Positions 3,547 through 59,745 of a DNA stretch of 64,000 nucleotides are shown here, piece after piece. The notes beneath the pieces were generated by a model. The model had not been told where the DNA came from. It saw nothing but the letters and a program-made list of their open reading frames with translations, and searched no databases. A program made the translations under genes and the position numbers. The DNA comes from Candidatus Kerfeldbacteria bacterium RIFCSPLOWO2_02_FULL_42_19 (GTDB taxonomy: Bacteria > Patescibacteriota > Patescibacteriia > HO2-48-17), in NCBI GenBank assembly GCA_001818315.1, contig MHKF01000013.1, positions 14,612 through 78,611 of the forward strand, written 5' to 3'. Each line of letters opens with the position of its first letter. The stretch's first letter is position 1.

Positions 3547-4116
3547 TTATTGTTCGATACGTACAGAATCAATCACTGCCATTGCCTTTGACTTGGAAGT
3601 ATCATAAAGATTTTCTGGCGCGGTATAGGTAAAACTGTATGCTTTTGCTTCGAGAATAAACCACATGCCGGTTGCGCGTGCCGTCAGTGTATCATTACTG
3701 AGTGTATACTCAACTGTATACGATGGATAACCAACCGTGGTGCTATCGTATGAATCCAAAAGTTTAAATTCTAATCCGAGATTGCTCAGTCCAGTGATTG
3801 AAGTCGCAGAATAGTCTTCCAGCGCAACACCTTCCACACCTAAATCTTCAACATACATTGTAATATTTGCTCCACTTTTATCTCCGAAACTTATCGCACC
3901 TTCTTCTGATTCTTTTTGAAACCAATCCTTGGGATACTCCAGCGTTAAATCGTTCTCTGCGTCTTCATATATTTTCAATTCTGCAGAAGATGCGAATCGC
4001 GATGAAGAAGTATTGTTCGTATTCTTCATGCGGGGTTGTATGATGAACCAACCACCAAGCAAAATAATGAGTACTACCACAATAATAGCCGTAATTTTGA
4101 GAGTCGCGCTCTTCAT
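3547..4116 (-). CDS. hypothetical membrane-anchored exported protein
   Basis: 189 aa with an N-terminal TM helix (ITAIIVVVLIILLGGWFII) followed by a soluble domain. No family recognised. Confidence 0.45.
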   Translation of the reverse strand: MKSATLKITAIIVVVLIILLGGWFIIQPRMKNTNNTSSSRFASSAELKIYEDAENDLTLEYPKDWFQKESEEGAISFGDKSGANITMYVEDLGVEGVALEDYSATSITGLSNLGLEFKLLDSYDSTTVGYPSYTVEYTLSNDTLTARATGMWFILEAKAYSFTYTAPENLYDTSKSKAMAVIDSVRIEQ

Positions 4117-9640: not shown

Positions 9641-9803
9641 GGGTCTGTCGCCGAATACGCTTTCGTCTGTGAAATCGTAGAATTTCGTGACAGAATTGCT
9701 GAATAAATTTTGAGGTTTATATGGAATATAAGCTGAAAAATTTTGAAGCGATGCTGGCCGAAATGCTACGATTGCAACAGAAATGGTATTCGGCGACAGA
9801 TCC
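9641..9803 (+). repeat. MITE-like element, type B (163 bp) with 20-bp TIRs GGGTCTGTCGCCGAATACGC / GTATTCGGCGACAGATCC
   Basis: It is more than 97% identical to a second copy at 31955-32118 and shares its terminal inverted repeats with the type-A elements. Confidence 0.8.
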
Positions 9804-10422: not shown

Positions 10423-10487
10423 ATTGTTGACTAAAATAAGCGGACGAGCTTTGAAATTTTTGCAAGAAAAATTTTCATTTTTCACAG

Positions 10488-10520
10488 ACGAAAGCGCATT
10501 CGGCGACAGTCCCATTATAC
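10488..10520 (-). repeat. solo TIR remnant of the MITE family (GGGACTGTCGCCGAATGCGCTTTCGTCTGTGAA)
   Basis: Matches the MITE terminal repeat. It lies between the methyltransferase start and the rnhB stop. Confidence 0.6.
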
Positions 10521-11114: not shown

Positions 11115-12408
11115 ACGGAGATGAAAGCGTATTCGGCGACAGACCCCATTGCGCTTGCGTTGCCTCAGCAACGCGTTCGAGCGCAACAATATATGCCGCG
11201 GTACGAAGTTCGGTTTGAAATCGTTTGTGTATATCCCAAACATGATCAAATGCTGTGGCCATGACTTCTTCGAGCTTTGCAAAGACAACATCTTTACTCC
11301 AGTGTTCTTTATGTTTGTTTTGTTCCCATTCAAAATAAGAAACAGTCACGCCGCCGGCATTTGCAAGAATGTCTGGCACAACAATGATGCCTTTTCGAGC
11401 AAGTATTTCATCTGCGTCTGGCGTCGTCGGTCCATTAGCAAGTTCCATAATGACCTGCGCGCGGATCCTTTCAGCATTCTCATGTGTAATTTGATTTTCA
11501 ATCGCCGCTGGAATGAGAATATCGCAATCACACTCCAAAAGTTCTGCATTAGAAATCGCCTGATAATGTTCGGCATCCCAACGAGTGCCGTCAAAGTACG
11601 CCCCAGATGCAAATTCTTTTTCCTTTTTCGTGCGTGCAAGATATTCAGCATTCATACCGAGACCTCGCATATCTAGAATACCTCCGTGAGAATCTGACAC
11701 TGCAATCACTCGAAATCCAGCTTCGGTCAGGAGTCGTACCATCGTTGCGCCGGCGTTGCCAAAACCCTGAATAGCAACGCGCGCGTTGTTTGGGAGTTGT
11801 AATTTTTTCCTGAGCGAATGCAGAACGAAAAATCCACCTTGTGCTGTTGCAGTATCTCGACCTTCCGAACCTCCTGCATGTAAAGGCTTGCCCGTGACTA
11901 CAGCCGGTGTCGGCGCACCGACAGAGGTACTGTACTCGTCTGCGATCCATGCCATAATCTCTGGTGTTGTATATACATCCGGCGCTGGAACATCTTTATC
12001 TGGACCAATCACGTCTTGTAACGCTCTGGTAAATCCACGCGACAGTCGCTCAAGTTCGCCTCGAGATAATTGACGTGTATCCACAGTAATCCCGCCTTTT
12101 CCGCCACCGAATGGAATGCCAACAACAGCACATTTCCATGTCATCCACGCCGCGAGAGCCTTGATTTCATCCATATTTGTTTCGGGATGAAAACGTAATC
12201 CCCCTTTGTACGGCCCACGCGCATTATTGTATTGCACACGAAATCCATGAAAAATGCGCGGTTGTCCGTTATCCATACGCACAGGGAAAAAAACTTCAAT
12301 CGTGCGGTTCGGTCGCTTGAGTATTTCGTAGAGATCGTCGTCGATTTTATGAAGTGTTGTAGCCTTTTCCAATTGCTGGAGAGCGTGTTCAAAGGGGTTG
12401 TATGACAT
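11086..12408 (-). CDS. gdhA: NAD(P)-specific glutamate dehydrogenase, with a C-terminal tail derived from a repeat TIR
   Basis: 440 aa with the K-x-GGGKGG catalytic block (GIPFGGGKGGITVD) and the Rossmann motif GFGNAGA. The last 18 aa or so (GLSPNTLSSPYASKTATRK) are encoded by the solo TIR at 11131-11160. Confidence 0.9.
   Translation of the reverse strand: MSYNPFEHALQQLEKATTLHKIDDDLYEILKRPNRTIEVFFPVRMDNGQPRIFHGFRVQYNNARGPYKGGLRFHPETNMDEIKALAAWMTWKCAVVGIPFGGGKGGITVDTRQLSRGELERLSRGFTRALQDVIGPDKDVPAPDVYTTPEIMAWIADEYSTSVGAPTPAVVTGKPLHAGGSEGRDTATAQGGFFVLHSLRKKLQLPNNARVAIQGFGNAGATMVRLLTEAGFRVIAVSDSHGGILDMRGLGMNAEYLARTKKEKEFASGAYFDGTRWDAEHYQAISNAELLECDCDILIPAAIENQITHENAERIRAQVIMELANGPTTPDADEILARKGIIVVPDILANAGGVTVSYFEWEQNKHKEHWSKDVVFAKLEEVMATAFDHVWDIHKRFQTELRTAAYIVALERVAEATQAQWGLSPNTLSSPYASKTATRK
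11131..11160 (+). repeat. solo MITE TIR (GAAAGCGTATTCGGCGACAGACCCC) embedded in the gdhA 3' end
   Basis: Identical to the right-hand TIR of the full-length elements. Confidence 0.65.
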
Positions 12409-12428: not shown

Positions 12429-13397
12429 TTATTTTGTAAAGCCCCAGTCAGGAATTACAACACTGCGTTTCCCTTGTCTGAGCTGTATATATTTATAGGC
12501 AGCGAGAGCGGCTTTAGCGCCTTCCCCTGCCGAGATCACAACTTGTTTATATTCGAGTGTTGTGGCATCACCTGCCGCAAAAATTCCGGGTGTTGAAGTT
12601 TCACAATGTTGGTTGACTATAACTTGCTGACGCTTATCTAAAGTCACAAGATCTTTAACCCACGCAGATTTTACGATATACCCCATCTCAACGAAGATGC
12701 CATCGAGATTAATAGTGCGTATTACTGATGCCGCATCTTGTACCTTAATGCCTGCAACTTGCTCCTTACCGAGTATTTCAAGTACACGCGTTTCAAGGTG
12801 TATGGTGATATTGTGAGTCTGTTCCACTTTTGATTTGAGGATGGGATTTCCCGAAAGCGCGGTGCCTTGATGGATGAGATACACTTTTTTACAAAGACGA
12901 CTGAGTGATTCGCTGGCATCCAGTGCGCCGATGCTGCCCCCTGCGACCGCGACAATTTTACCTTTAAAAAACGAGCCATCGCACGTTGGACAATACGAAA
13001 CACCTCGACCGCGCAATTGCGTTTCTCCCGGTACTCCGAGATCTCGTGGCGTCAATCCAAAGGCAAGAATGACTGTGTGCGTTATAAACATCGCGGTTGG
13101 CGTGTGCACGGAAAATGTTTCGTCTTCGCATTTTGTAAGTCCAGTGACTTCCTGAAATTCAAGCCTTGCTCCAAATTTTTGTGCTTGCTTTGCAAAAGCG
13201 TCCATGATGTCGAATCCGTTCATGAGCGGAAGCCCAGGATAATTTTCAATTTCCGGTGTACGCGCCGCTTGTCCGCCAAGATCTTTGGTGACTAAAAGTA
13301 CTTTCAATCCTCGCCTCGCAGCATACAGCGCAGCAGATAATCCTGCTGGTCCACCGCCGACAATAATAACATCGTAAAGTGTCGTATCCGATTGCAT
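12429..13397 (-). CDS. trxB: thioredoxin-disulfide reductase
   Basis: N-terminal FAD motif VIIVGGGPAGLSAA, a redox-active CPTCDG, and a second Rossmann GGS..A. Confidence 0.9.
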   Translation of the reverse strand: MQSDTTLYDVIIVGGGPAGLSAALYAARRGLKVLLVTKDLGGQAARTPEIENYPGLPLMNGFDIMDAFAKQAQKFGARLEFQEVTGLTKCEDETFSVHTPTAMFITHTVILAFGLTPRDLGVPGETQLRGRGVSYCPTCDGSFFKGKIVAVAGGSIGALDASESLSRLCKKVYLIHQGTALSGNPILKSKVEQTHNITIHLETRVLEILGKEQVAGIKVQDAASVIRTINLDGIFVEMGYIVKSAWVKDLVTLDKRQQVIVNQHCETSTPGIFAAGDATTLEYKQVVISAGEGAKAALAAYKYIQLRQGKRSVVIPDWGFTK

Positions 13398-16812: not shown

Positions 16813-16873
16813 ATTATGAGTAGCGTATTAATCCTATGTTATATGTTTTCTTCAAATACGTTGTCACAATAAA

Positions 16874-17033
16874 GGACTGTCGCCGAATGTTATTTCTTGT
16901 TCAAGACACAAAATAAAGAAGAGGATGACTCTCCTTTCTCAGCACACTGTGCAGTGTTAGTGCTTCGAAAGCGAGAGTCATCCTCTTCTTTTGTTTTGCA
17001 CATTGCATAAGAAACGGCATTCGGCGACAGTCT
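16874..17033 (+). repeat. MITE-like element, type A: TIRs, variable stem, conserved palindromic core
   Basis: TIRs GGACTGTCGCCGAATG...CATTCGGCGACAGTC. Internal perfect 15-bp stem AAGAGGATGACTCTC/GAGAGTCATCCTCTT around the core CTTTCTCAGCACACTGTGCAGTGTTAGTGCTTCGAAAG. Confidence 0.8.
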
Positions 17034-17036
17034 CTA

Positions 17037-20275: not shown

Positions 20276-20312
20276 CAAAAACTGCCAATAACGGCAGTTT
20301 TTGTATTTCGAG
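20276..20312 (+). terminator. rho-independent terminator after the NHL gene
   Basis: ACTGCC-AATAAC-GGCAGT hairpin followed by TTTTTGTATTT. Confidence 0.5.
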
Positions 20313-20323
20313 TTGTATTTTAA

Positions 20324-20483
20324 GATAGTCGCCGAAGATCGTTTCTTATCCAAAGTAAAAAATAAAAGAGGAGGAAGACTCTTGCTTTCGAAGCACTCAC
20401 ACTGCATAGTGTGCTGAGAAAGGAGAGTCTGCCCCCTCTTTTGTTATGCGCATTGCACAGGAAACGATATTTGGCGACTATCT
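20324..20483 (+). repeat. MITE-like element, type A, divergent copy
   Basis: Degenerate TIRs GATAGTCGCCGAAG...TTTGGCGACTATC, stem AAGAGGAGGAAGACTCT/AGAGTCTGCCCCCTCTT, conserved core CTTTCGAAGCACTCACACTGCATAGTGTGCTGAGAAAG. Confidence 0.65.
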
Positions 20484-20604
20484 CATTTTGTGAGATAAGC
20501 TCGAGTTATTGCCCTTGCGGCGATGACGCCAAAAATTCATCTTTGACACCTGTATGAAAAATTGTTATATTTTGCTTACTTAGGCTTGAAAATGCCTTGA
20601 TCAA

Positions 20605-20676
20605 GGCCCCATCGTCTAGTGGTTAGGACATCAGGTTTTCATCCTGGAAACGGGGGTTCGACTCCCCCTGGGGTCG
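20605..20676 (+). tRNA. tRNA-Glu(TTC)
   Basis: GGCCCCA acceptor, anticodon loop TTTTCAT, T-arm GGGGGTTCGACTCCCCC. Confidence 0.8.
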
Positions 20677-26080: not shown

Positions 26081-26095
26081 TTATCAATTTTTCTA

Positions 26096-26135
26096 TGATC
26101 AAAATGTATTTTTCACAGACGAAAGCGTATTCGGT
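26096..26135 (-). repeat. solo MITE TIR remnant (TTCACAGACGAAAGCGTATTCGGTGACATC)
   Basis: Matches the TIR in the reverse-complement orientation. It sits in the convergent intergenic region. Confidence 0.5.
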
Positions 26136-26192
26136 GACATCTCCAAAATAATTTCGCTTTTATTTTTGGGACACGGTGCTTACCAAAACAAC

Positions 26193-30407: not shown

Positions 30408-30514
30408 ATTTTTTTATTTTTGTTTTCCGAATCAAACTAATTTAATTTTAGCATAAAAATGCTTAAGAGTCAAAGTAATCATAGGTACATTCAAATCCCT
30501 CTGCATCATATTTT

Positions 30515-30698
30515 GGGACTGTCGTCGAATACGCTTTCGTCTGTGAAAGTGAATTTCAATCATAGAAAAAAGAGGAGGAAGACTCTCGCTTTCGAAGCAC
30601 TGACAGGGCACAGTGTGCTGAGAAAGGAGAGTCTTCCTCCTCTTTTGATGATCACGATTTCTTTTTCACAGAAGAAAGCGTATTCGGCGACAGACCCC
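30515..30698 (+). repeat. MITE-like element, type A, full length
   Basis: TIRs GGGACTGTCGTCGAATACGCTTTCGTCTGTGAAA...TTTCACAGAAGAAAGCGTATTCGGCGACAGACCCC, an 18-bp stem AAGAGGAGGAAGACTCTC, and the conserved core. Confidence 0.85.
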
Positions 30699-30761
30699 AT
30701 GAATACATTTCTGTCATTTTTTTCGACATTATTTATAATATAGATATCACGCTGTCGTGTA

Positions 30762-30947: not shown

Positions 30948-31676
30948 ATGGATCTCGAAGTTGTACTCAAAACTCTCGGTCTTTCTGCGAAGGAGGCCAA
31001 AATTTATCTCGCTTGTTTACAGTATGGGGAGTTGAATGTATCAAAAATTGCACAGTTTTCTGGACTCAAACGTTCAACATGCTATGCAATTCTCGAGGGA
31101 CTTGTTACGAAAAAGCTTGTTATAAGTCCTACGATGTCTGACAAAAAGCGATATCATGCTGTTGAACCAGCCGAGCTTTTGTTCCACGTGGAACATCAGA
31201 AACAACTTCTCGAGCAATATCTTCCAACGTTCAATTCACTTGCATTCCAAGAGGCACCTCACTTTGGAATTCTATCTGGATCGAGTGGACTGCCGTTTCT
31301 TCAAAAACAGATAGAATCCCAATCGCTTGTGTATATTGTCGGTTCATTTCACACTGTGACTCCATTGCTGCGCAATCTGATGCTTGGATTATTCTCCCAA
31401 ATGAAGACGGGTGCCGGAAAAATACATCTGTACCTTCCTCCATTACCTCATGACATTGCTTTTTCTGAACAGCATGCCGACAATTTTCAAATACGTTTTG
31501 TTCCACGTGGAACAATTTTTGACAGTTTTAGTATTATTTCCGAATTTTTTTGCGCAACATTTATTACAAATAAAAGTGACATGCAGATCATTTTTTTAGA
31601 ACATAAAGGAATTATGAAAACATGGTGGCAGATGCTTCAGCTCATGGATAATGTTTTGTCTGTAAAAAAGGCTTAG
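30948..31676 (+). CDS. TrmB-family (winged-HTH) transcriptional regulator
   Basis: An N-terminal domain that looks TrmB-like to me (GLSAKEAKIYLACLQYGELNVSKIAQFSGLKRSTCYAILEGLVTKKLV) and a C-terminal effector domain. Confidence 0.7.
   Translation: MDLEVVLKTLGLSAKEAKIYLACLQYGELNVSKIAQFSGLKRSTCYAILEGLVTKKLVISPTMSDKKRYHAVEPAELLFHVEHQKQLLEQYLPTFNSLAFQEAPHFGILSGSSGLPFLQKQIESQSLVYIVGSFHTVTPLLRNLMLGLFSQMKTGAGKIHLYLPPLPHDIAFSEQHADNFQIRFVPRGTIFDSFSIISEFFCATFITNKSDMQIIFLEHKGIMKTWWQMLQLMDNVLSVKKA
31180..31195. promoter_or_regulatory. palindrome TGTTCCACGTGGAACA (copy 2, inside the TrmB CDS, encodes FHVEH)
   Basis: Exact 16-mer. Confidence 0.5.
31499..31514. promoter_or_regulatory. palindrome TGTTCCACGTGGAACA (copy 3, inside the TrmB CDS in a different codon phase, encodes VPRGT)
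   Basis: Exact 16-mer. Confidence 0.5.
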
Positions 31677-31702: not shown

Positions 31703-31872
31703 GGGACTGTCGTCGAATGTTATTTCTTGTTCAATATACAAAACAAAGGAGGCGGATGAGAACTTTCGAAGCACTGACAATGCACAGTGTGCTTCGAAAG
31801 TTCTCATCCGCCTCCTCTTTTGCTTATGACTAAAATTCATTTTCACGAGTGAAAGCGCATTCGGTGACAGTC
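31703..31872 (+). repeat. MITE-like element, type A
   Basis: TIRs GGGACTGTCGTCGAATG...GCGCATTCGGTGACAGTCC. Stem AAGGAGGCGGATGAGAAC/GTTCTCATCCGCCTCCTCTT around the core CTTTCGAAGCACTGACAATGCACAGTGTGCTTCGAAAG. Confidence 0.85.
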
Positions 31873-31954
31873 CACTCAAGGATACCGCGAAGCAATGCAA
31901 TCTCATTTGAGTTGATTCGATATATTCAACGAGTGCCGAAGGTGTTTTGCAATA

Positions 31955-32118
31955 GGGGTCTGTCGCCGAATACGCTTTCGTCTGTGAAATCGTAGAATTT
32001 CGTGACAGAACCGCTGAATAAATTTTGAGGTTTATATAGAATATAAGCTGAAAAATTTTGAAGCGATGCTGGCCGAAATGCTACGATTGCAACAGAAATG
32101 GTATTCGGCGACAGACCC
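31955..32118 (+). repeat. MITE-like element, type B (second copy)
   Basis: Differs from the 9641-9803 copy at only a few positions. Confidence 0.85.
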
Positions 32119-32253
32119 AATAGGGAGATATTGAGCTTTGATATCAATGAACCTTCGCGCAAAAAGCTGATGCTGTATTCTCAACTTCAAAACGCATATT
32201 TTTTACATTTGTGGCAAAAAATTGTTTTGTATCGTATTCATTTCAAACAGATT

Positions 32254-32269
32254 GTTCCACGTGGAACAT
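32254..32269. promoter_or_regulatory. palindrome TGTTCCACGTGGAACA (copy 4)
   Basis: Exact 16-mer, 580 bp downstream of the TrmB gene. Confidence 0.5.
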
Positions 32270-33783: not shown

Positions 33784-33912
33784 GACGCTGTCGCTGGATA
33801 ACGTTTCTTATACAATAAAAAAAGAGGGGGAAGATTCTCCCTTTCGAAGCACTAACACTGCACAGTGTGCTGAGATAGGGAGAATCTTCCCCCTCGTTGT
33901 TATTATGACAAG
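33784..33912 (+). repeat. MITE type A, degenerate copy (eroded TIRs, intact stem and core)
   Basis: Stem GAGGGGGAAGATTCTCCC/GGGAGAATCTTCCCCCTC flanks the core CTTTCGAAGCACTAACACTGCACAGTGTGCTGAGATAG. Confidence 0.55.
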
Positions 33913-38770: not shown

Positions 38771-38796
38771 ATACATTACTTAACAAGAAAAATAGT

Positions 38797-38975
38797 GGAC
38801 TGTCAATGAATGCGTTAATGCAGTGCGACTATCGCCGAATACTATTTCTTGTCCAATGCACAAAGCAAAAGAGGAGGAAGACTCTCCTTTCTCAGCACAC
38901 TGTGCAGTGTCAGTGCTTCGAAAGCGAGCGTCTGCCTCCTCTTTTTTCTATGATTCACATTCATTGCTTACAATT
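38797..38975 (+). repeat. MITE type A, copy with degenerate or duplicated TIRs
   Basis: Left end GGACTGTCAATGAATGCG plus a second partial GACTATCGCCGAATAC. Stem AAGAGGAGGAAGACTCTCC, conserved core, eroded right TIR. Confidence 0.65.
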
Positions 38976-51617: not shown

Positions 51618-52244
51618 ATGCAATTGAACGGAACAAAAATTATCATACGCAAAGAAAGTCGGTCAGAGTGTTTCCACCTTACTTCTGGCGAATCTTTACT
51701 CTACGTTGTTTTTTATACGCCACGAACGCAAACACAGAAGATAGAATTTTGTCTTGAAGGCCTAGGTGCGAACGTGACGATTATTGGTTGGGATATACAT
51801 ACGCAAGGCAAGACACAGATTCAGCATCATGTGAGTCACCGAGCTCCGGATACAGTGAGCCGAACCTACGTGCGTTCACTCATCGGCGGTGCGGCAGAGA
51901 GTGTGTTTCATGGACTCATTCACATACAGAAAAAAGCGCATGGGAGCGATGGAATTTTTGTGCATAACACTCTGCTTGCTTCTCATCGAGCGCGAGGCAG
52001 AGCAGAGCCAACCCTTGAAATCGAAACAAGCGATGTCGTACAAGTGAAGCACGCGGCAACTGTTTCGACATTTGACGCAGAACAGCTGTATTATCTCGCG
52101 AGTCGCGGCCTACACGAAATCGATGTGAAGAAACTCCTTATGGAAGGATTTGCAGAAGAGTTATTGCAACATCTGCCAACTGAAGTGTGCAAGCAGATTC
52201 GCCCGCTCATCGACAAAAAACTTCAAGGGATTATCGCCGAGTAG
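51618..52244 (+). CDS. sufD: SufD-like protein (short form, SufBD C-terminal beta-helix)
   Basis: 208 aa. A beta-helix with ASHRARGRAEPTLEI and a C-terminal helix bundle similar to the SufB C-terminus. Confidence 0.7.
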   Translation: MQLNGTKIIIRKESRSECFHLTSGESLLYVVFYTPRTQTQKIEFCLEGLGANVTIIGWDIHTQGKTQIQHHVSHRAPDTVSRTYVRSLIGGAAESVFHGLIHIQKKAHGSDGIFVHNTLLASHRARGRAEPTLEIETSDVVQVKHAATVSTFDAEQLYYLASRGLHEIDVKKLLMEGFAEELLQHLPTEVCKQIRPLIDKKLQGIIAE

Positions 52245-52276
52245 ACTTTCGCTTGTAAGAGACGAGTTTTGATCAT

Positions 52277-52350
52277 ACACATAGAAGAAGGAAGATTGTG
52301 CTTTCGAAACACACTGTGCAGTGTTAGTGCCTCGACAGTGATAATCCTCC
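52277..52350 (+). repeat. fragment of a MITE type A core (CTTTCGAAACACACTGTGCAGTGTTAGTGCCTCGAC) with a degenerate stem
   Basis: Matches the conserved core of the repeat family. No TIRs. Confidence 0.45.
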
Positions 52351-52394
52351 TCGTATGACTTGCTCATAAAACGTATCGTCACTCAAAAATCGAA

Positions 52395-56726: not shown

Positions 56727-58730
<2,004 letters not shown>

Positions 58731-59593: not shown

Positions 59594-59714
59594 GATGCAC
59601 CTCCTTTCTCGAAAATGGATAGAAACGAAAACCCTTCAACGAACTTTGATACCGTCGCAATGTTGTTACGACCCTGTTGCTCAATGCCATTACTATTATC
59701 ATTTAATTCCGTGA

Positions 59715-59745
59715 CAAAAGCGCATTCGTCGACAGTCCTGTTACG
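59715..59745 (-). repeat. solo MITE TIR remnant (GTGACAAAAGCGCATTCGTCGACAGTCC)
   Basis: Matches the TIR. It lies just downstream of the trmD stop. Confidence 0.5.

What the first reader, a model, noticed from the sequence alone, without database searches (positions are those of the whole stretch)
16874..17033. Family of ~160-bp MITE-like elements with shared TIRs, a conserved palindromic core and a lineage-specific stem
Seven copies carry the conserved ~38-bp near-palindromic core, at 16874, 20324, 30515, 31703, 33784, 38797 and 52277. The core is CTTTCGAAGCACTGACAGGGCACAGTGTGCTGAGAAAG, read in either orientation. In the six copies other than 52277 it is embraced by a perfect 15-18 bp stem whose sequence differs from copy to copy but always stays self-complementary. 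Examples are AAGAGGATGACTCTC, AAGAGGAGGAAGACTCTC, AAGGAGGCGGATGAGAAC and GAGGGGGAAGATTCTCCC. The 52277 copy is a TIR-less core fragment with only a degenerate, partial stem. Outside the stem sit ~30-bp terminal inverted repeats, GGGTCTGTCGCCGAATRCGCTTTCGTCTGTGAAA. Compensatory stem variation around an invariant loop means something is selecting for the hairpin itself. That could be RNA structure or a cruciform substrate for a transposase or recombinase. This architecture differs from CRISPR repeats, REP/BIME elements and the Correia elements I know.
Basis: seen in the sequence. Interest (0 to 1): 0.75.

Follow-up and report, generated by a model that had tools for sequence, protein, structure and literature searches.

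The report
Hairpin-carrying MITE family in a CPR bacterium
These seven loci are copies of a small non-coding jumping element (a MITE) that is widespread in Patescibacteria, here carrying a long central hairpin with a very conserved tip. It is a new family of a familiar kind of element, and the role of the hairpin is still open.

Summary
The repeat family is real. A covariance model finds exactly seven hairpin copies in the window.

**What it is.** The copies are a lineage-restricted variant ("type A") of a large MITE superfamily in Patescibacteria. The superfamily is defined by the terminal repeat GGGWCTGTCGCCGAAT. It makes exact 5-bp target duplications in AT-rich DNA: 52 of 108 elements have a perfect duplication, against 2.3% expected by permutation. 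The window, from a Kerfeldbacteria MAG, also holds two core-less 163-bp "type B" copies and four solo or truncated ends.

**The stems.** They do covary: 92.9% of cells pair and 17 of 31 pairs changed on both sides. But they are not always perfect; 20322 and 38825 each carry mismatches.

**Why covariation does not prove selection for a hairpin.**
- The terminal repeats and arms of the core-less relatives covary too.
- The core is flipped relative to the arms in some copies.
- Some stems are chimeric.
- One subfamily has had the core's asymmetry erased.

These are footprints of recombination and template switching in DNA palindromes.

**What remains unexplained.** The core is much more conserved than anything around it. 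No transposase was found. The ends and the 5-bp duplication resemble Tn3, but membership is unproven.

**Verdict.** A new member of a known kind, of moderate interest.

The parts
16873..17034 (-). Type A element, complete, 162 bp. Ends 16873-16888 and 17019-17034; hairpin 16907-16998; core 16934-16971. The core is in F orientation on the minus strand.
   Evidence: 103.6 bits. The stem is a perfect 20 bp and carries two compensated substitutions relative to the family consensus. There is no target duplication (AATAA versus TATCA). It lies between convergent pilB-like and tsaD genes.
20322..20484 (+). Type A element, 163 bp, with variant ends (AAGATAGTCGCC / GAGATAGTCGCC). Hairpin 20358-20449; core 20385-20422.
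   Evidence: 99.1 bits. A 5-bp target duplication ATTTT sits at 20317-20321 and 20485-20489 (read). The stem has two internal mismatches and a mismatch next to the core.
30515..30697 (+). Type A element, complete, 183 bp, with the same arm type (T2) on both sides.
   Evidence: 105.9 bits; DNA fold -64.5 kcal/mol, z = -13.1. It is 96% identical to a paralog on another contig of the same genome, L127 10003-10185.
31703..31874 (+). Type A element of subfamily A2, 172 bp, with arms T1|T2. Hairpin 31736-31828; core 31763-31800. The base of the core is fully palindromic and there is no bulged G.
   Evidence: 28 consecutive pairs; 92.7 bits.
33784..33906 (+). Type A element with a degenerate left end (GACGCTGTCGCTGGAT) and no right end. 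Hairpin 33814-33906; core 33841-33878.
   Evidence: 92.3 bits. The stem is perfect although the ends have decayed.
38825..38975 (-). Type A element with one end (38825-38840) and the other end lost. Hairpin 38860-38951; core 38887-38924. An extra solo end sits at 38796-38813.
   Evidence: (101.7 bits). The stem has two mismatches. One arm carries the GGCAGAC variant that is also seen on the opposite arm of the 20322 copy, which suggests chimeric arms.
52227..52365 (-). Degenerate type A (A2-like) element. One end at 52227-52242; hairpin 52274-52365; core 52301-52338.
   Evidence: 65.2 bits. The end overlaps the last codons of a SufBD-like gene (51618-52244).
9641..9803 (+). Type B element, 163 bp. 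It has the same ends, no 38-nt core, and a small central hairpin.
   Evidence: target duplication TAAAA; DNA fold z = -10.5.
31956..32118 (+). Type B element, 163 bp, 98% identical to 9641-9803.
   Evidence: target duplication AATAG.
10480..10516 (-). Solo or truncated element end (T2 arm plus terminal repeat).
11119..11149 (-). Solo terminal repeat.
26086..26150 (+). Truncated right half of an element (arm plus degenerate terminal repeat).
   Evidence: repeat families D1, D5 and D10.
59712..59742 (-). Solo degenerate terminal repeat.

Best explanation
**What it is.** The loci are copies of a non-autonomous transposon with terminal inverted repeats (a MITE). It belongs to a superfamily spread through Patescibacteria (CPR) genomes. 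All members share the terminal repeat GGGWCTGTCGCCGAAT(AC).

**How it moves.**
- Shown: the elements insert into AT-rich pentanucleotides (roughly W-T-W-A-W) and duplicate exactly 5 bp.
- Inferred: they are moved in trans by a DDE transposase that makes 5-bp staggered cuts. The best candidate, unproven, is a Tn3-like enzyme.

**Size classes.** The commonest form is about 161-163 bp (type B). Deletion derivatives go down to 37 bp, which is two abutted 18-bp ends.

**The type A variant.** The finding concerns type A, so far seen only in this Kerfeldbacteria genome and a few groundwater relatives. Its centre is a rod hairpin of about 90 nt with these parts:
- an A-run;
- a stem of about 20 bp that is purine-rich on the 5' arm (AAAAGAGGAGGAAGACTCTC);
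- a bulged G;
- CTTTC/GAAAG;
- a GA/GA internal loop;
- AGCAC/GTGCT;
- a 14-nt loop, TNACANNGCACAGT;
- a T-run.

**Why the stems differ yet pair (inferred).** The stem differences between copies, mostly matched on both arms, are best explained by DNA-level palindrome dynamics rather than stepwise compensatory evolution. One arm is recopied from the other by template switching or quasi-palindrome correction. The loop is occasionally inverted. Copies recombine at the shared core, which shuffles the two arm types and sometimes creates mismatched stems.

**Why the core is conserved (inferred).** The core is under a separate, stronger constraint. It is most likely needed by the element, or it was kept by the host because a transcript through it gets a stable 3' hairpin followed by a U-run on either strand.
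For: **Family and mobility**
- There are seven hairpin copies plus two type B copies and four solo or truncated ends in 64 kb.
- The same ends occur in at least 108 stretches of GTDB genomes, nearly all Patescibacteria MAGs. Many sit at contig ends, as expected of a high-copy repeat.
- Size classes are 37, 44, 53, 75, 85 and 161-163 bp.
- The target duplication is exactly 5 bp. It is perfect in 52 of 108 elements against 2.3% by permutation, and in 0 of 108 in an offset control or at 6-9 bp. Targets are AT-rich.
- Type A copies with duplications are 20322 (ATTTT), L127a (TTTAT) and L002 (ATAAT).
- Neighbouring genes are housekeeping genes, and no transposase lies in the window.

**Resemblance to Tn3**
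- A verified Tn3 in phage P7 has ends GGGGTCTGACGC... and a 5-bp duplication, TGAAA.
- Our end matches 12 of 16 positions in register. A random window 16-mer does this with P about 1e-4.

**Hairpin**
- All 14 distinct copies fold to the same rod, at -29 to -62 kcal/mol.
- The whole element folds with z = -13.

**Palindrome dynamics**
- The arms and terminal repeats of type B relatives also covary.
- The core orientation relative to arm type is T1|F|T2 in 31703 but T2|F|T1 in 38825, L001a and L002.
- 38825 and 20322 carry the same GGCAGAC variant on opposite single arms.
- In subfamily A2 (31703, L001b, 52277) the right side CTGAGAAAG has become CTTCGAAAG, the exact complement of the left side, and the bulged G is gone.
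- PMC8794818 documents that template switching makes perfect stems, multi-base compensations and loop inversions.

**Constraint on the core**
- Variability is 0.6% at 11 loop positions and 2-6% at the core base. It is 23% in the inner stem and 40% at 3 loop positions.
- Two young paralogs differ at 7 sites, none of them in the 92-nt hairpin.
- Copies that have lost both ends still keep the core.
Against: - No autonomous element was found. All widely spaced end pairs enclose housekeeping genes. A tblastn search with Tn3 TnpA finds nothing in about 0.9 Mb of loci that carry the ends.
- The 37-bp elements have only 18-bp ends, whereas Tn3-family transposases recognise a 38-bp repeat (PMC9579193).
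- Copy number is high, which is not what Tn3-type target immunity predicts (PMC4133298).
- The IS26 end matches almost as well, at 10 of 16 positions.
- No clean empty site was found. All other contigs of this organism are at least 99.98% identical over the aligned stretch and carry the same elements wherever they overlap them. The only syntenic relative is too distant.
- Four of the eight type A copies that keep both ends lack a target duplication.
- Template switching was not demonstrated. With 14 copies and no tree it cannot be separated from selection on an RNA hairpin.
- The strong and position-specific conservation of the loop is not explained by palindrome dynamics.
Confidence: 0.75

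Rival explanations
1. The hairpin works as RNA, and its stem is kept paired by selection. When read through from the upstream gene, it would act as a bidirectional intrinsic terminator, a 3' stabiliser, or an RNase III site. This is what REP, ERIC and Correia elements do in other bacteria. The MITE would only be the vehicle.
For: - The stem of about 20 bp is flanked by an A-run and a T-run on both strands.
- Six of the seven window copies lie just downstream of a gene's 3' end.
- The core strand bearing the tandem G-A and bulged G is in the mRNA sense of the upstream gene in 6 of 7 unambiguous tandem contexts.
- Perfect stems and the core persist in copies whose terminal repeats are gone: 33784, L003, L001b.
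- The core is much more conserved than its surroundings.
Against: - The orientation bias is not significant (P about 0.06).
- Mismatches in imperfect stems are not preferentially G-U (A-C, A-G, C-T and G-A are seen).
- A terminator does not need a conserved 38-nt tip.
- The 20322 copy sits right after a native terminator-like hairpin at 20281-20303. The 3' location may therefore simply reflect insertion into T-rich targets.
- 30515 lies between divergent gene starts.
- No Rfam family matches above threshold.
- No expression data could be examined.
Confidence: 0.3
2. The conserved core is a protein recognition site used as DNA, either as a hairpin or cruciform or as a duplex operator. Possible binders are an accessory site for the transposase, a recombinase or invertase site that flips the core, or a nicking (HUH-type) origin. 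Such origins typically have an invariant loop on a variable stem.
For: - Eleven loop positions are nearly invariant while three are free to vary.
- The two half-sites CTTTCGAAGCAC and GTGCTGAGAAAG are inverted repeats 14 bp apart, and there is an invariant GCACAGTGTGC palindrome.
- The core is found in both orientations relative to the arms.
- Sequence conservation holds across organisms whose flanking genes are only about 67% identical.
Against: - No recombinase, HUH or transposase gene lies in the window or next to any copy.
- Type B and the 37-bp elements transpose without the core.
- Loop inversion needs no enzyme, because inverted-repeat recombination or template switching can produce it.
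Confidence: 0.15
3. The stem plus core is a separate small palindromic element that invaded the centre of a type B-like MITE. It now also exists on its own.
For: - Hairpins occur without any terminal repeat (L003, L001b, L127b).
- Other MAGs show GC-rich hairpins inserted inside 161-bp elements (L087, L113, L117, L055, L101, L017).
Against: - The copies without terminal repeats still carry remnants of the arm sequences next to the stem, so they look like decayed or truncated full elements.
- No duplication or boundary marks a nested insertion. The palindrome runs on continuously into the arms.
- No hairpin was found in 585 kb of loci from other genomes.
Confidence: 0.08

Closest known systems
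[quoted passage not shown]
   Same: Both are non-coding elements with terminal inverted repeats. Both make 5-bp target duplications in AT-rich DNA. Both can fold into a long stem-loop (PMC4133298). The outer end GGGTCTGTCGC matches the Tn3 end GGGTCTGACGC.
   Different: Similarity to Tn3 ends stops after about 16 nt, whereas TIMEs share the whole 38-bp repeat. Functional copies here can have only 18-bp ends. There are dozens of copies per small genome, against 1-4 for TIMEs. No Tn3-family transposase was found. The host is Patescibacteria, not Pseudomonas or enterobacteria.
Correia elements (NEMIS) of Neisseria, and ERIC/IRU elements
   Same: These are intergenic MITEs of about 100-160 bp whose transcripts form long hairpins, with known effects on termination and RNase III processing (my own knowledge, not tested here).
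   Different: Correia elements duplicate TA and have 26-bp ends of unrelated sequence with an IHF site in the centre. They have no conserved structured tip on a variable stem.
REP/BIME elements with RAYT transposases
   Same: These are abundant intergenic palindromes, often just after genes, that stabilise upstream mRNA (my own knowledge).
   Different: REPs have no terminal inverted repeats and no target duplication, and are tied to a Y1 (HUH) transposase gene. Here there are terminal repeats and exact 5-bp duplications.
Quasi-palindrome correction and template-switch mutation in hairpins
   Same: It produces perfect stems, multi-base changes on both arms at once, loop inversion, and erasure of asymmetries (PMC8794818).
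   Different: This is a mutational process, not an element family. Its action here is inferred from footprints in 14 copies, not shown.

Membership tests
MITE (non-autonomous transposon with terminal inverted repeats) | Terminal inverted repeats at both ends | tested here: met
   GGGWCTGTCGCCGAAT is present in inverted orientation at both ends of 16873-17034, 20322-20484, 30515-30697, 31703-31874, 9641-9803 and 31956-32118.
MITE (non-autonomous transposon with terminal inverted repeats) | Target-site duplication of fixed length | tested here: met
   The duplication is exactly 5 bp. It is perfect in 52 of 108 elements against 2.3% by permutation, and absent in the offset control and at 6-9 bp.
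MITE (non-autonomous transposon with terminal inverted repeats) | Small, non-coding, many copies | tested here: met
   Elements are 37-235 bp. The only ORFs across them are incidental. There are 13 copies or fragments in 64 kb, and at least 108 stretches elsewhere.
MITE (non-autonomous transposon with terminal inverted repeats) | A cognate autonomous element with the same ends | tested here: inconclusive
   None was found in the window or in about 0.9 Mb of loci. The complete genomes could not be searched.
MITE (non-autonomous transposon with terminal inverted repeats) | Presence/absence polymorphism (empty sites) | tested here: inconclusive
   The other contigs of this organism are at least 99.98% identical over the aligned stretch and carry the same copies wherever they overlap them. 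The syntenic relative L128 lacks the elements, but at 51% protein identity it is too distant to show a clean empty site.
TIME / Tn3-family derived MITE | A terminal repeat of about 38 bp homologous to Tn3-family ends (box A GGGGT, inner box) | tested here: inconclusive
   12 of 16 outer positions match verified Tn3 ends, and nothing matches beyond. The 37-bp members have only 18-bp ends. PMC9579193 states a 38-bp recognition sequence.
TIME / Tn3-family derived MITE | 5-bp (or 6-bp) duplication in AT-rich targets | tested here: met
   compare PMC4133298 and the Tn3 copy in phage P7 (TGAAA).
TIME / Tn3-family derived MITE | A Tn3-family transposase present in the host to mobilise it | tested here: inconclusive
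   tblastn with Tn3 TnpA gave only a spurious hit in a BipA gene. Only loci carrying the ends were available.
IS6/IS26-derived MITE | 8-bp target duplication (my knowledge of the family); ends GGCACTGTTGCAAA | tested here: not met
   The duplication is 5 bp, never 8. The IS26 ends, verified in NC_002090.1, match 10 of 16 positions.
Correia / NEMIS | TA target duplication and Correia-type 26-bp ends (my knowledge) | tested here: not met
   The duplication is 5 bp and of varied sequence. The ends are unrelated.
REP/BIME | No terminal repeats or target duplication; linked to a RAYT gene | tested here: not met
   Terminal repeats and duplications are present. No Y1 transposase is among the window proteins scanned.
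Curated structured RNA family (Rfam 15) | Score at or above a family's gathering threshold | tested here: not met
   No match at the loci at gathering thresholds. In the sensitive search only generic long-hairpin models hit, far below threshold: MIR2646 at 52 versus 245 bits and a plastid psbA 3'UTR at 43 versus 56 bits.
Intrinsic (bidirectional) terminator | A stable hairpin followed directly by a U-run on the transcribed strand | tested here: inconclusive
   The sequence fits on both strands (A4-6 ... T4-6 around a stem of about 20 bp). The simple scanner cannot score loops longer than 8 nt. Termination itself cannot be tested with these tools.
CRISPR array | Regularly spaced direct repeats with unique spacers | tested here: not met
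   Copies are 1-14 kb apart, in both orientations, and separated by genes.

The most novel reading that the evidence does not exclude
The 38-nt core on its variable stem may be a functional module that the MITE spreads around small CPR genomes and that is kept by selection after the transposon ends decay. It could be a sequence-specific hairpin read by a host or element protein, or it could act as RNA (terminator, RNase III site or stabiliser). Eleven invariant loop bases, a conserved tandem G-A and a bulged G would then be recognition features. The flip-flop of the core could switch which strand carries the active form.
Probability: 0.25. Interest if true: 0.65.

Novelty: new member of a known kind. 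Interest (0 to 1): 0.42.

Why it matters
- **A gap in what has been described.** CPR/Patescibacteria genomes are tiny and are thought to hold few mobile elements. This analysis finds a high-copy MITE superfamily shared by several CPR lineages: Kerfeldbacteria, Magasanikbacteria, Falkowbacteria, Uhrbacteria and Parcubacteria-group MAGs. I found no description of it in the searchable literature.
- **Practical use.** It breaks assemblies, since many contigs end in it. It also offers a marker for strain dynamics and for gene flow between CPR lineages.
- **The 37-bp members.** They would be among the smallest mobile DNA elements known. They set an upper limit of 18 bp on what the unknown transposase needs at each end.
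- **A caution for genome scans.** The type A hairpin shows that stem covariation in a transposon palindrome does not by itself demonstrate a selected structure.
- **An open lead.** The unusually conserved core suggests a possible regulatory module in organisms that cannot be cultured.

Tried and rejected
1. **Core pattern in GTDB species genomes:** 0 hits. In JGI metagenomes there were only 5 stretches. Type A is therefore rare.
2. **Three scans of viral contigs** with end and core patterns gave only chance hits in coding DNA.
3. **Spurious ORFs over MITE copies, used to pull more copies from the protein database.** The 94-aa ORF 30459-30743 is on record. Its search returned a single relative. 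That relative led to one more contig of the same genome, L127.
4. **Hunt for the transposase.**
   - All widely spaced end pairs enclose tRNA synthetases, glycosyltransferases and similar genes.
   - Only two spurious long pairs share a 5-bp flank.
   - 155 unpaired ends are truncated copies or copies at contig ends.
   - tblastn with Tn3 TnpA was negative.
   - Two ORFs in L099 (441 and 1001 aa) between ends have no Pfam match and were not pursued.
5. **Empty sites.** The other contigs of this organism are at least 99.98% identical over the aligned stretch, and the only ortholog-bearing relative is too distant.
6. **Rfam**, at gathering and at sensitive thresholds, found nothing real.
7. **The promoter/terminator scanner** was not informative for hairpins with a 38-nt tip.
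8. **Terminal-repeat decay as a neutral clock for the core** was rejected. Both ends of 20322 share the same variant (GATAGTCGCC), so some end variation is inherited from subfamily founders rather than decay.
9. **An apparent rule that the purine arm always comes first on the plus strand** was considered and dropped. It is a trivial property of any palindrome.
10. **The FEMS review** that tabulates IS-family ends and duplication lengths is not held. Statements about families other than Tn3 and IS26 rest on my own knowledge.
Full report

Yes, in the main. The quoted 38-mer is exact at 30589-30626. With up to 3 mismatches it matches at three places where 0.00 are expected. A 14-nt end motif matches 15 times against 0.76 expected.

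I built a covariance model from 14 copies and ran it over the window with filters off. It finds exactly seven hairpins at 65-106 bits, and nothing else scores above 18 bits. The positions are 16907-16998(-), 20358-20449(+), 30562-30653(+), 31736-31828(+), 33814-33906(+), 38860-38951(-) and 52274-52365(-).

Four details need correcting:
- The stems of 20322 and 38825 are not perfect. Each has two internal mismatches and a mismatch next to the core.
All copies share just the first 16 nt, GGGWCTGTCGCCGAAT, and then carry one of two arm types.
- 52277 does keep one end, at 52227-52242.
There are two 163-bp elements with the same ends but no core (9641-9803 and 31956-32118, 98% identical). There are also solo or truncated ends at 10480-10516, 11119-11149, 26086-26150, 38796-38813 and 59712-59742.

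**2. Where the window comes from**

The genes are housekeeping genes: pilB-like ATPase, tsaD, ruvB, nusA, trigger factor, the suf operon, trmD, a 16S rRNA and tRNAs. No transposase, integrase or recombinase is present.

The TrmB-like protein is 100% identical to a protein of [quoted passage not shown]. Contigs of the same organism occur in several groundwater assemblies. They are at least 99.98% identical to the window over the aligned stretch and carry the same element copies wherever they overlap them, so they give no empty sites.

**3. The elements are MITEs of a CPR-wide superfamily**

Almost all are from Patescibacteria MAGs: Kerfeldbacteria, Magasanikbacteria, Falkowbacteria, Uhrbacteria and Parcubacteria-group. 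Many lie at contig ends, which is typical of a repeat that breaks assemblies.

Pairing the ends gives discrete size classes:
- 37 bp, which is simply two 18-bp ends joined by one base;
- 44, 53, 75 and 85 bp;
- a dominant class of 161-163 bp, which is the window's type B.

The flanks show an exact 5-bp direct duplication in 52 of 108 elements, and 4 of 5 matches in another 20. Permutation of flanks gives 2.3% perfect. An offset control gives none, and no element has a 6-9 bp duplication. The duplicated sites are AT-rich, roughly W-T-W-A-W.

The window copies with a clean duplication are:
- 9641 (TAAAA);
- 31956 (AATAG);
- 20322 (ATTTT at 20317-20321 and 20485-20489, read).

Type A copies elsewhere give TTTAT (L127a), ATAAT (L002) and 4 of 5 (L004).

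Terminal inverted repeats, a fixed-length target duplication, small non-coding size and high copy number are the defining marks of a MITE. I found no paper describing MITEs in Patescibacteria/CPR in the searchable library.

**4. Which transposase?**

This remains unknown. No autonomous element was found:
- All end pairs 0.5-5 kb apart enclose ordinary genes.
- The 155 unpaired ends are truncated copies or copies cut by contig ends.
- tblastn with a verified Tn3 transposase found only a spurious hit.

The best lead is the Tn3 family:
- A Tn3 copy annotated in phage P7 has ends GGGGTCTGACGCTCAG... and a 5-bp duplication.
- Our end matches 12 of 16 positions in register. A random 16-mer from the window does so with P about 1e-4.
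- Non-coding Tn3 derivatives (TIMEs) with 5-bp duplications in AT-rich DNA are known (PMC4133298).

Three things argue against simple membership:
- The similarity ends after 16 nt.
- Tn3-family transposases recognise a 38-bp repeat (PMC9579193), whereas the 37-bp elements here move with 18-bp ends.
- The copy number is high, whereas TIMEs are single or few, attributed to target immunity.

The IS26 end matches nearly as well, at 10 of 16 positions, but IS6-family duplications are 8 bp (my own knowledge). I therefore file the elements as MITEs with Tn3-like ends, family unproven.

**5. Anatomy of type A**

Fourteen distinct copies were collected:
- 7 from the window;
- 2 from another contig of the same genome (L127);
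- 5 from three other metagenome contigs whose flanking genes are unrelated or only about 67% identical.

Oriented by the core, all fold into the same rod: A-run, stem of about 20 bp, bulged G, CTTTC/GAAAG, GA opposite GA, AGCAC/GTGCT, a 14-nt loop TNACANNGCACAGT, then a T-run.

The whole 183-bp element folds at -64.5 kcal/mol as DNA, with z = -13.1. Type B also folds end to end, with z = -10.5.

The two arm types of type A correspond to the two different ends of type B. Type A copies occur as T2|T2, T1|T2 and T2|T1 around a core held in a fixed orientation.

Type A is lineage-restricted. The model finds no hairpin in 585 kb of loci from other Patescibacteria that carry the same ends, and the core pattern has no hit in the GTDB species genomes.

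**6. The covariation, and what it does and does not show**

On the 14-copy alignment, 92.9% of cells pair, against 83.6% in shuffles. Seventeen of 31 pairs have changes on both sides, in 37 cells. None of 500 shuffles, and no slid register, comes close.

Four results argue that this is not, by itself, evidence of selection for a hairpin.

- **The core-less relatives covary along their whole length.** This includes the terminal repeats. Columns 4/162 are T-A in 13 sequences and A-T in 11. Columns 17/149 are A-T in 13 and G-C in 11. Fifteen of 42 pairs changed on both sides. In a transposon, the two ends co-vary because one protein reads both, or because one half is copied from the other.
- **The core is flipped relative to the arms.** It is T1|F|T2 in 31703 and T2|F|T1 in 38825, L001a and L002.
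- **The imperfect stems look like chimeras.** 38825 and 20322 carry the same GGCAGAC variant, each on one arm only and on opposite arms. This is what recombination between copies at the shared core would give.
- **One subfamily has had its asymmetry erased.** In 31703, L001b and 52277 the right side CTGAGAAAG reads CTTCGAAAG, the exact complement of the left side. The bulged G is gone and the pairing is uninterrupted.

Several stems also differ by blocks of consecutive base-pair flips, for example CTCTC/GAGAG versus CGAGA/TCTCG. Such flips cannot pass through wobble intermediates.

Perfect stems, multi-base changes on both arms at once, loop inversion and correction of asymmetries are the documented footprints of template switching in DNA hairpins (PMC8794818). 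The mismatches that do occur are not preferentially G-U.

**7. What still needs explaining: the core**

Variability is very uneven:

| Region | Non-consensus |
|---|---|
| 11 loop positions | 0.6% |
| Two sides of the core base | 2.4% and 6.0% |
| Outer stem | 14-17% |
| Inner stem | 23% |
| 3 loop positions | 40% |

Further observations point the same way:
- Two young paralogs (30515 and L127a) differ at 7 sites, none of them within the 92-nt hairpin.
- Copies that have lost both terminal repeats keep the core, and some keep a perfect stem.
- The core strand with the tandem G-A is in the mRNA sense of the upstream gene in 6 of 7 unambiguous contexts. This is suggestive only, at P about 0.06.

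A young family would show uniformly low divergence, so some constraint on the core is likely. It could act at the level of the element (only copies with an intact core multiply) or at the level of the host.

The sequence fits a bidirectional terminator or a 3' stabilising hairpin. However, the 20322 copy lies directly after a native terminator-like hairpin (20281-20303). The preference for gene 3' ends may therefore just reflect T-rich target sites. Rfam has no matching family.

**8. Verdict**

It is a new family, within a previously undescribed CPR-wide superfamily, of a well-known kind of element.

The claim that stem covariation shows selection on the hairpin is not established, and DNA palindrome dynamics is the more economical account. 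The conserved core remains an open and moderately interesting question.

My confidence in each part is as follows:
- MITE with 5-bp duplication: about 0.9.
- The overall account, including palindrome dynamics: about 0.75.
- Tn3-family origin: about 0.35.

Noticed in passing
L040 1316-1352, L047 6900-6936, L043 2371-2407, L035 956-992 and about 20 others: There are 37-bp elements made of two abutted 18-bp terminal repeats (GGGTCTGTCGCCGAATAC-G-GTATTCGGCGACAGACCC). Each has its own 5-bp target duplication. If they are mobile, they are among the smallest transposable elements known.
   Followed up: partly
L087 180-403, L113 4963-5147, L117 1125/2301, L055 1052-1286, L101 5841-6021, L017 7187-: In some MAGs the 161-bp elements carry extra GC-rich hairpins inserted at several internal positions, for example CCCCGCATTTGCGGGG and ATCCCGC...GCGGGAT. 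This may be a second layer of small palindromic insertions.
   Followed up: no
window 38796-38813 with 38825-38840; L037 7008/7034; L047 4538/4565; L079 1901/1928: Terminal repeats occur in tandem, in the same orientation and about 27-30 nt apart. This suggests repeated insertion at one spot just inside an older element's end.
   Followed up: no
window 20281-20303: A native terminator-like hairpin (CTGCC-AATAA-CGGCAG followed by T5) lies directly upstream of the 20322 element. The element landed in the T-rich stretch after it.
   Followed up: partly
window 20605-20676 (tRNA); L009 from position 12544: One assembly of the same organism departs from the window right after the 3' end of this tRNA gene and carries different genes there. 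This looks like strain-specific DNA inserted next to a tRNA.
   Followed up: no
window 56975-57057 (-) and 57259-58730 (-): Rfam reports a group II intron D1-D4 match (55.5 bits) between the 16S rRNA gene and two tRNAs, with no intron ORF nearby. The 16S match spans only 1472 nt for the full 1533-position model.
   Followed up: no
window 31498-31515 and 32253-32268; L128 about 2905-2925 and 3955-3975: The palindrome TGTTCCACGTGGAACA recurs around the TrmB-like regulator gene. The same motif is found in the syntenic locus of a distant relative. It is probably that regulator's operator.
   Followed up: no
L001 1531-1619: An unrelated perfect palindrome with 33-bp arms and an 8-nt loop lies in an intergenic region of another groundwater contig. 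The hairpin model picked it up at 40.8 bits.
   Followed up: no
L099 1150-2475 and 2481-5486: Two adjacent ORFs (441 and 1001 aa) with no Pfam match lie between a solo terminal repeat and a 66-bp mini-element in a Magasanikbacteria MAG. They are probably ordinary CPR proteins of unknown function, but they were not examined as transposase candidates beyond Pfam.
   Followed up: partly
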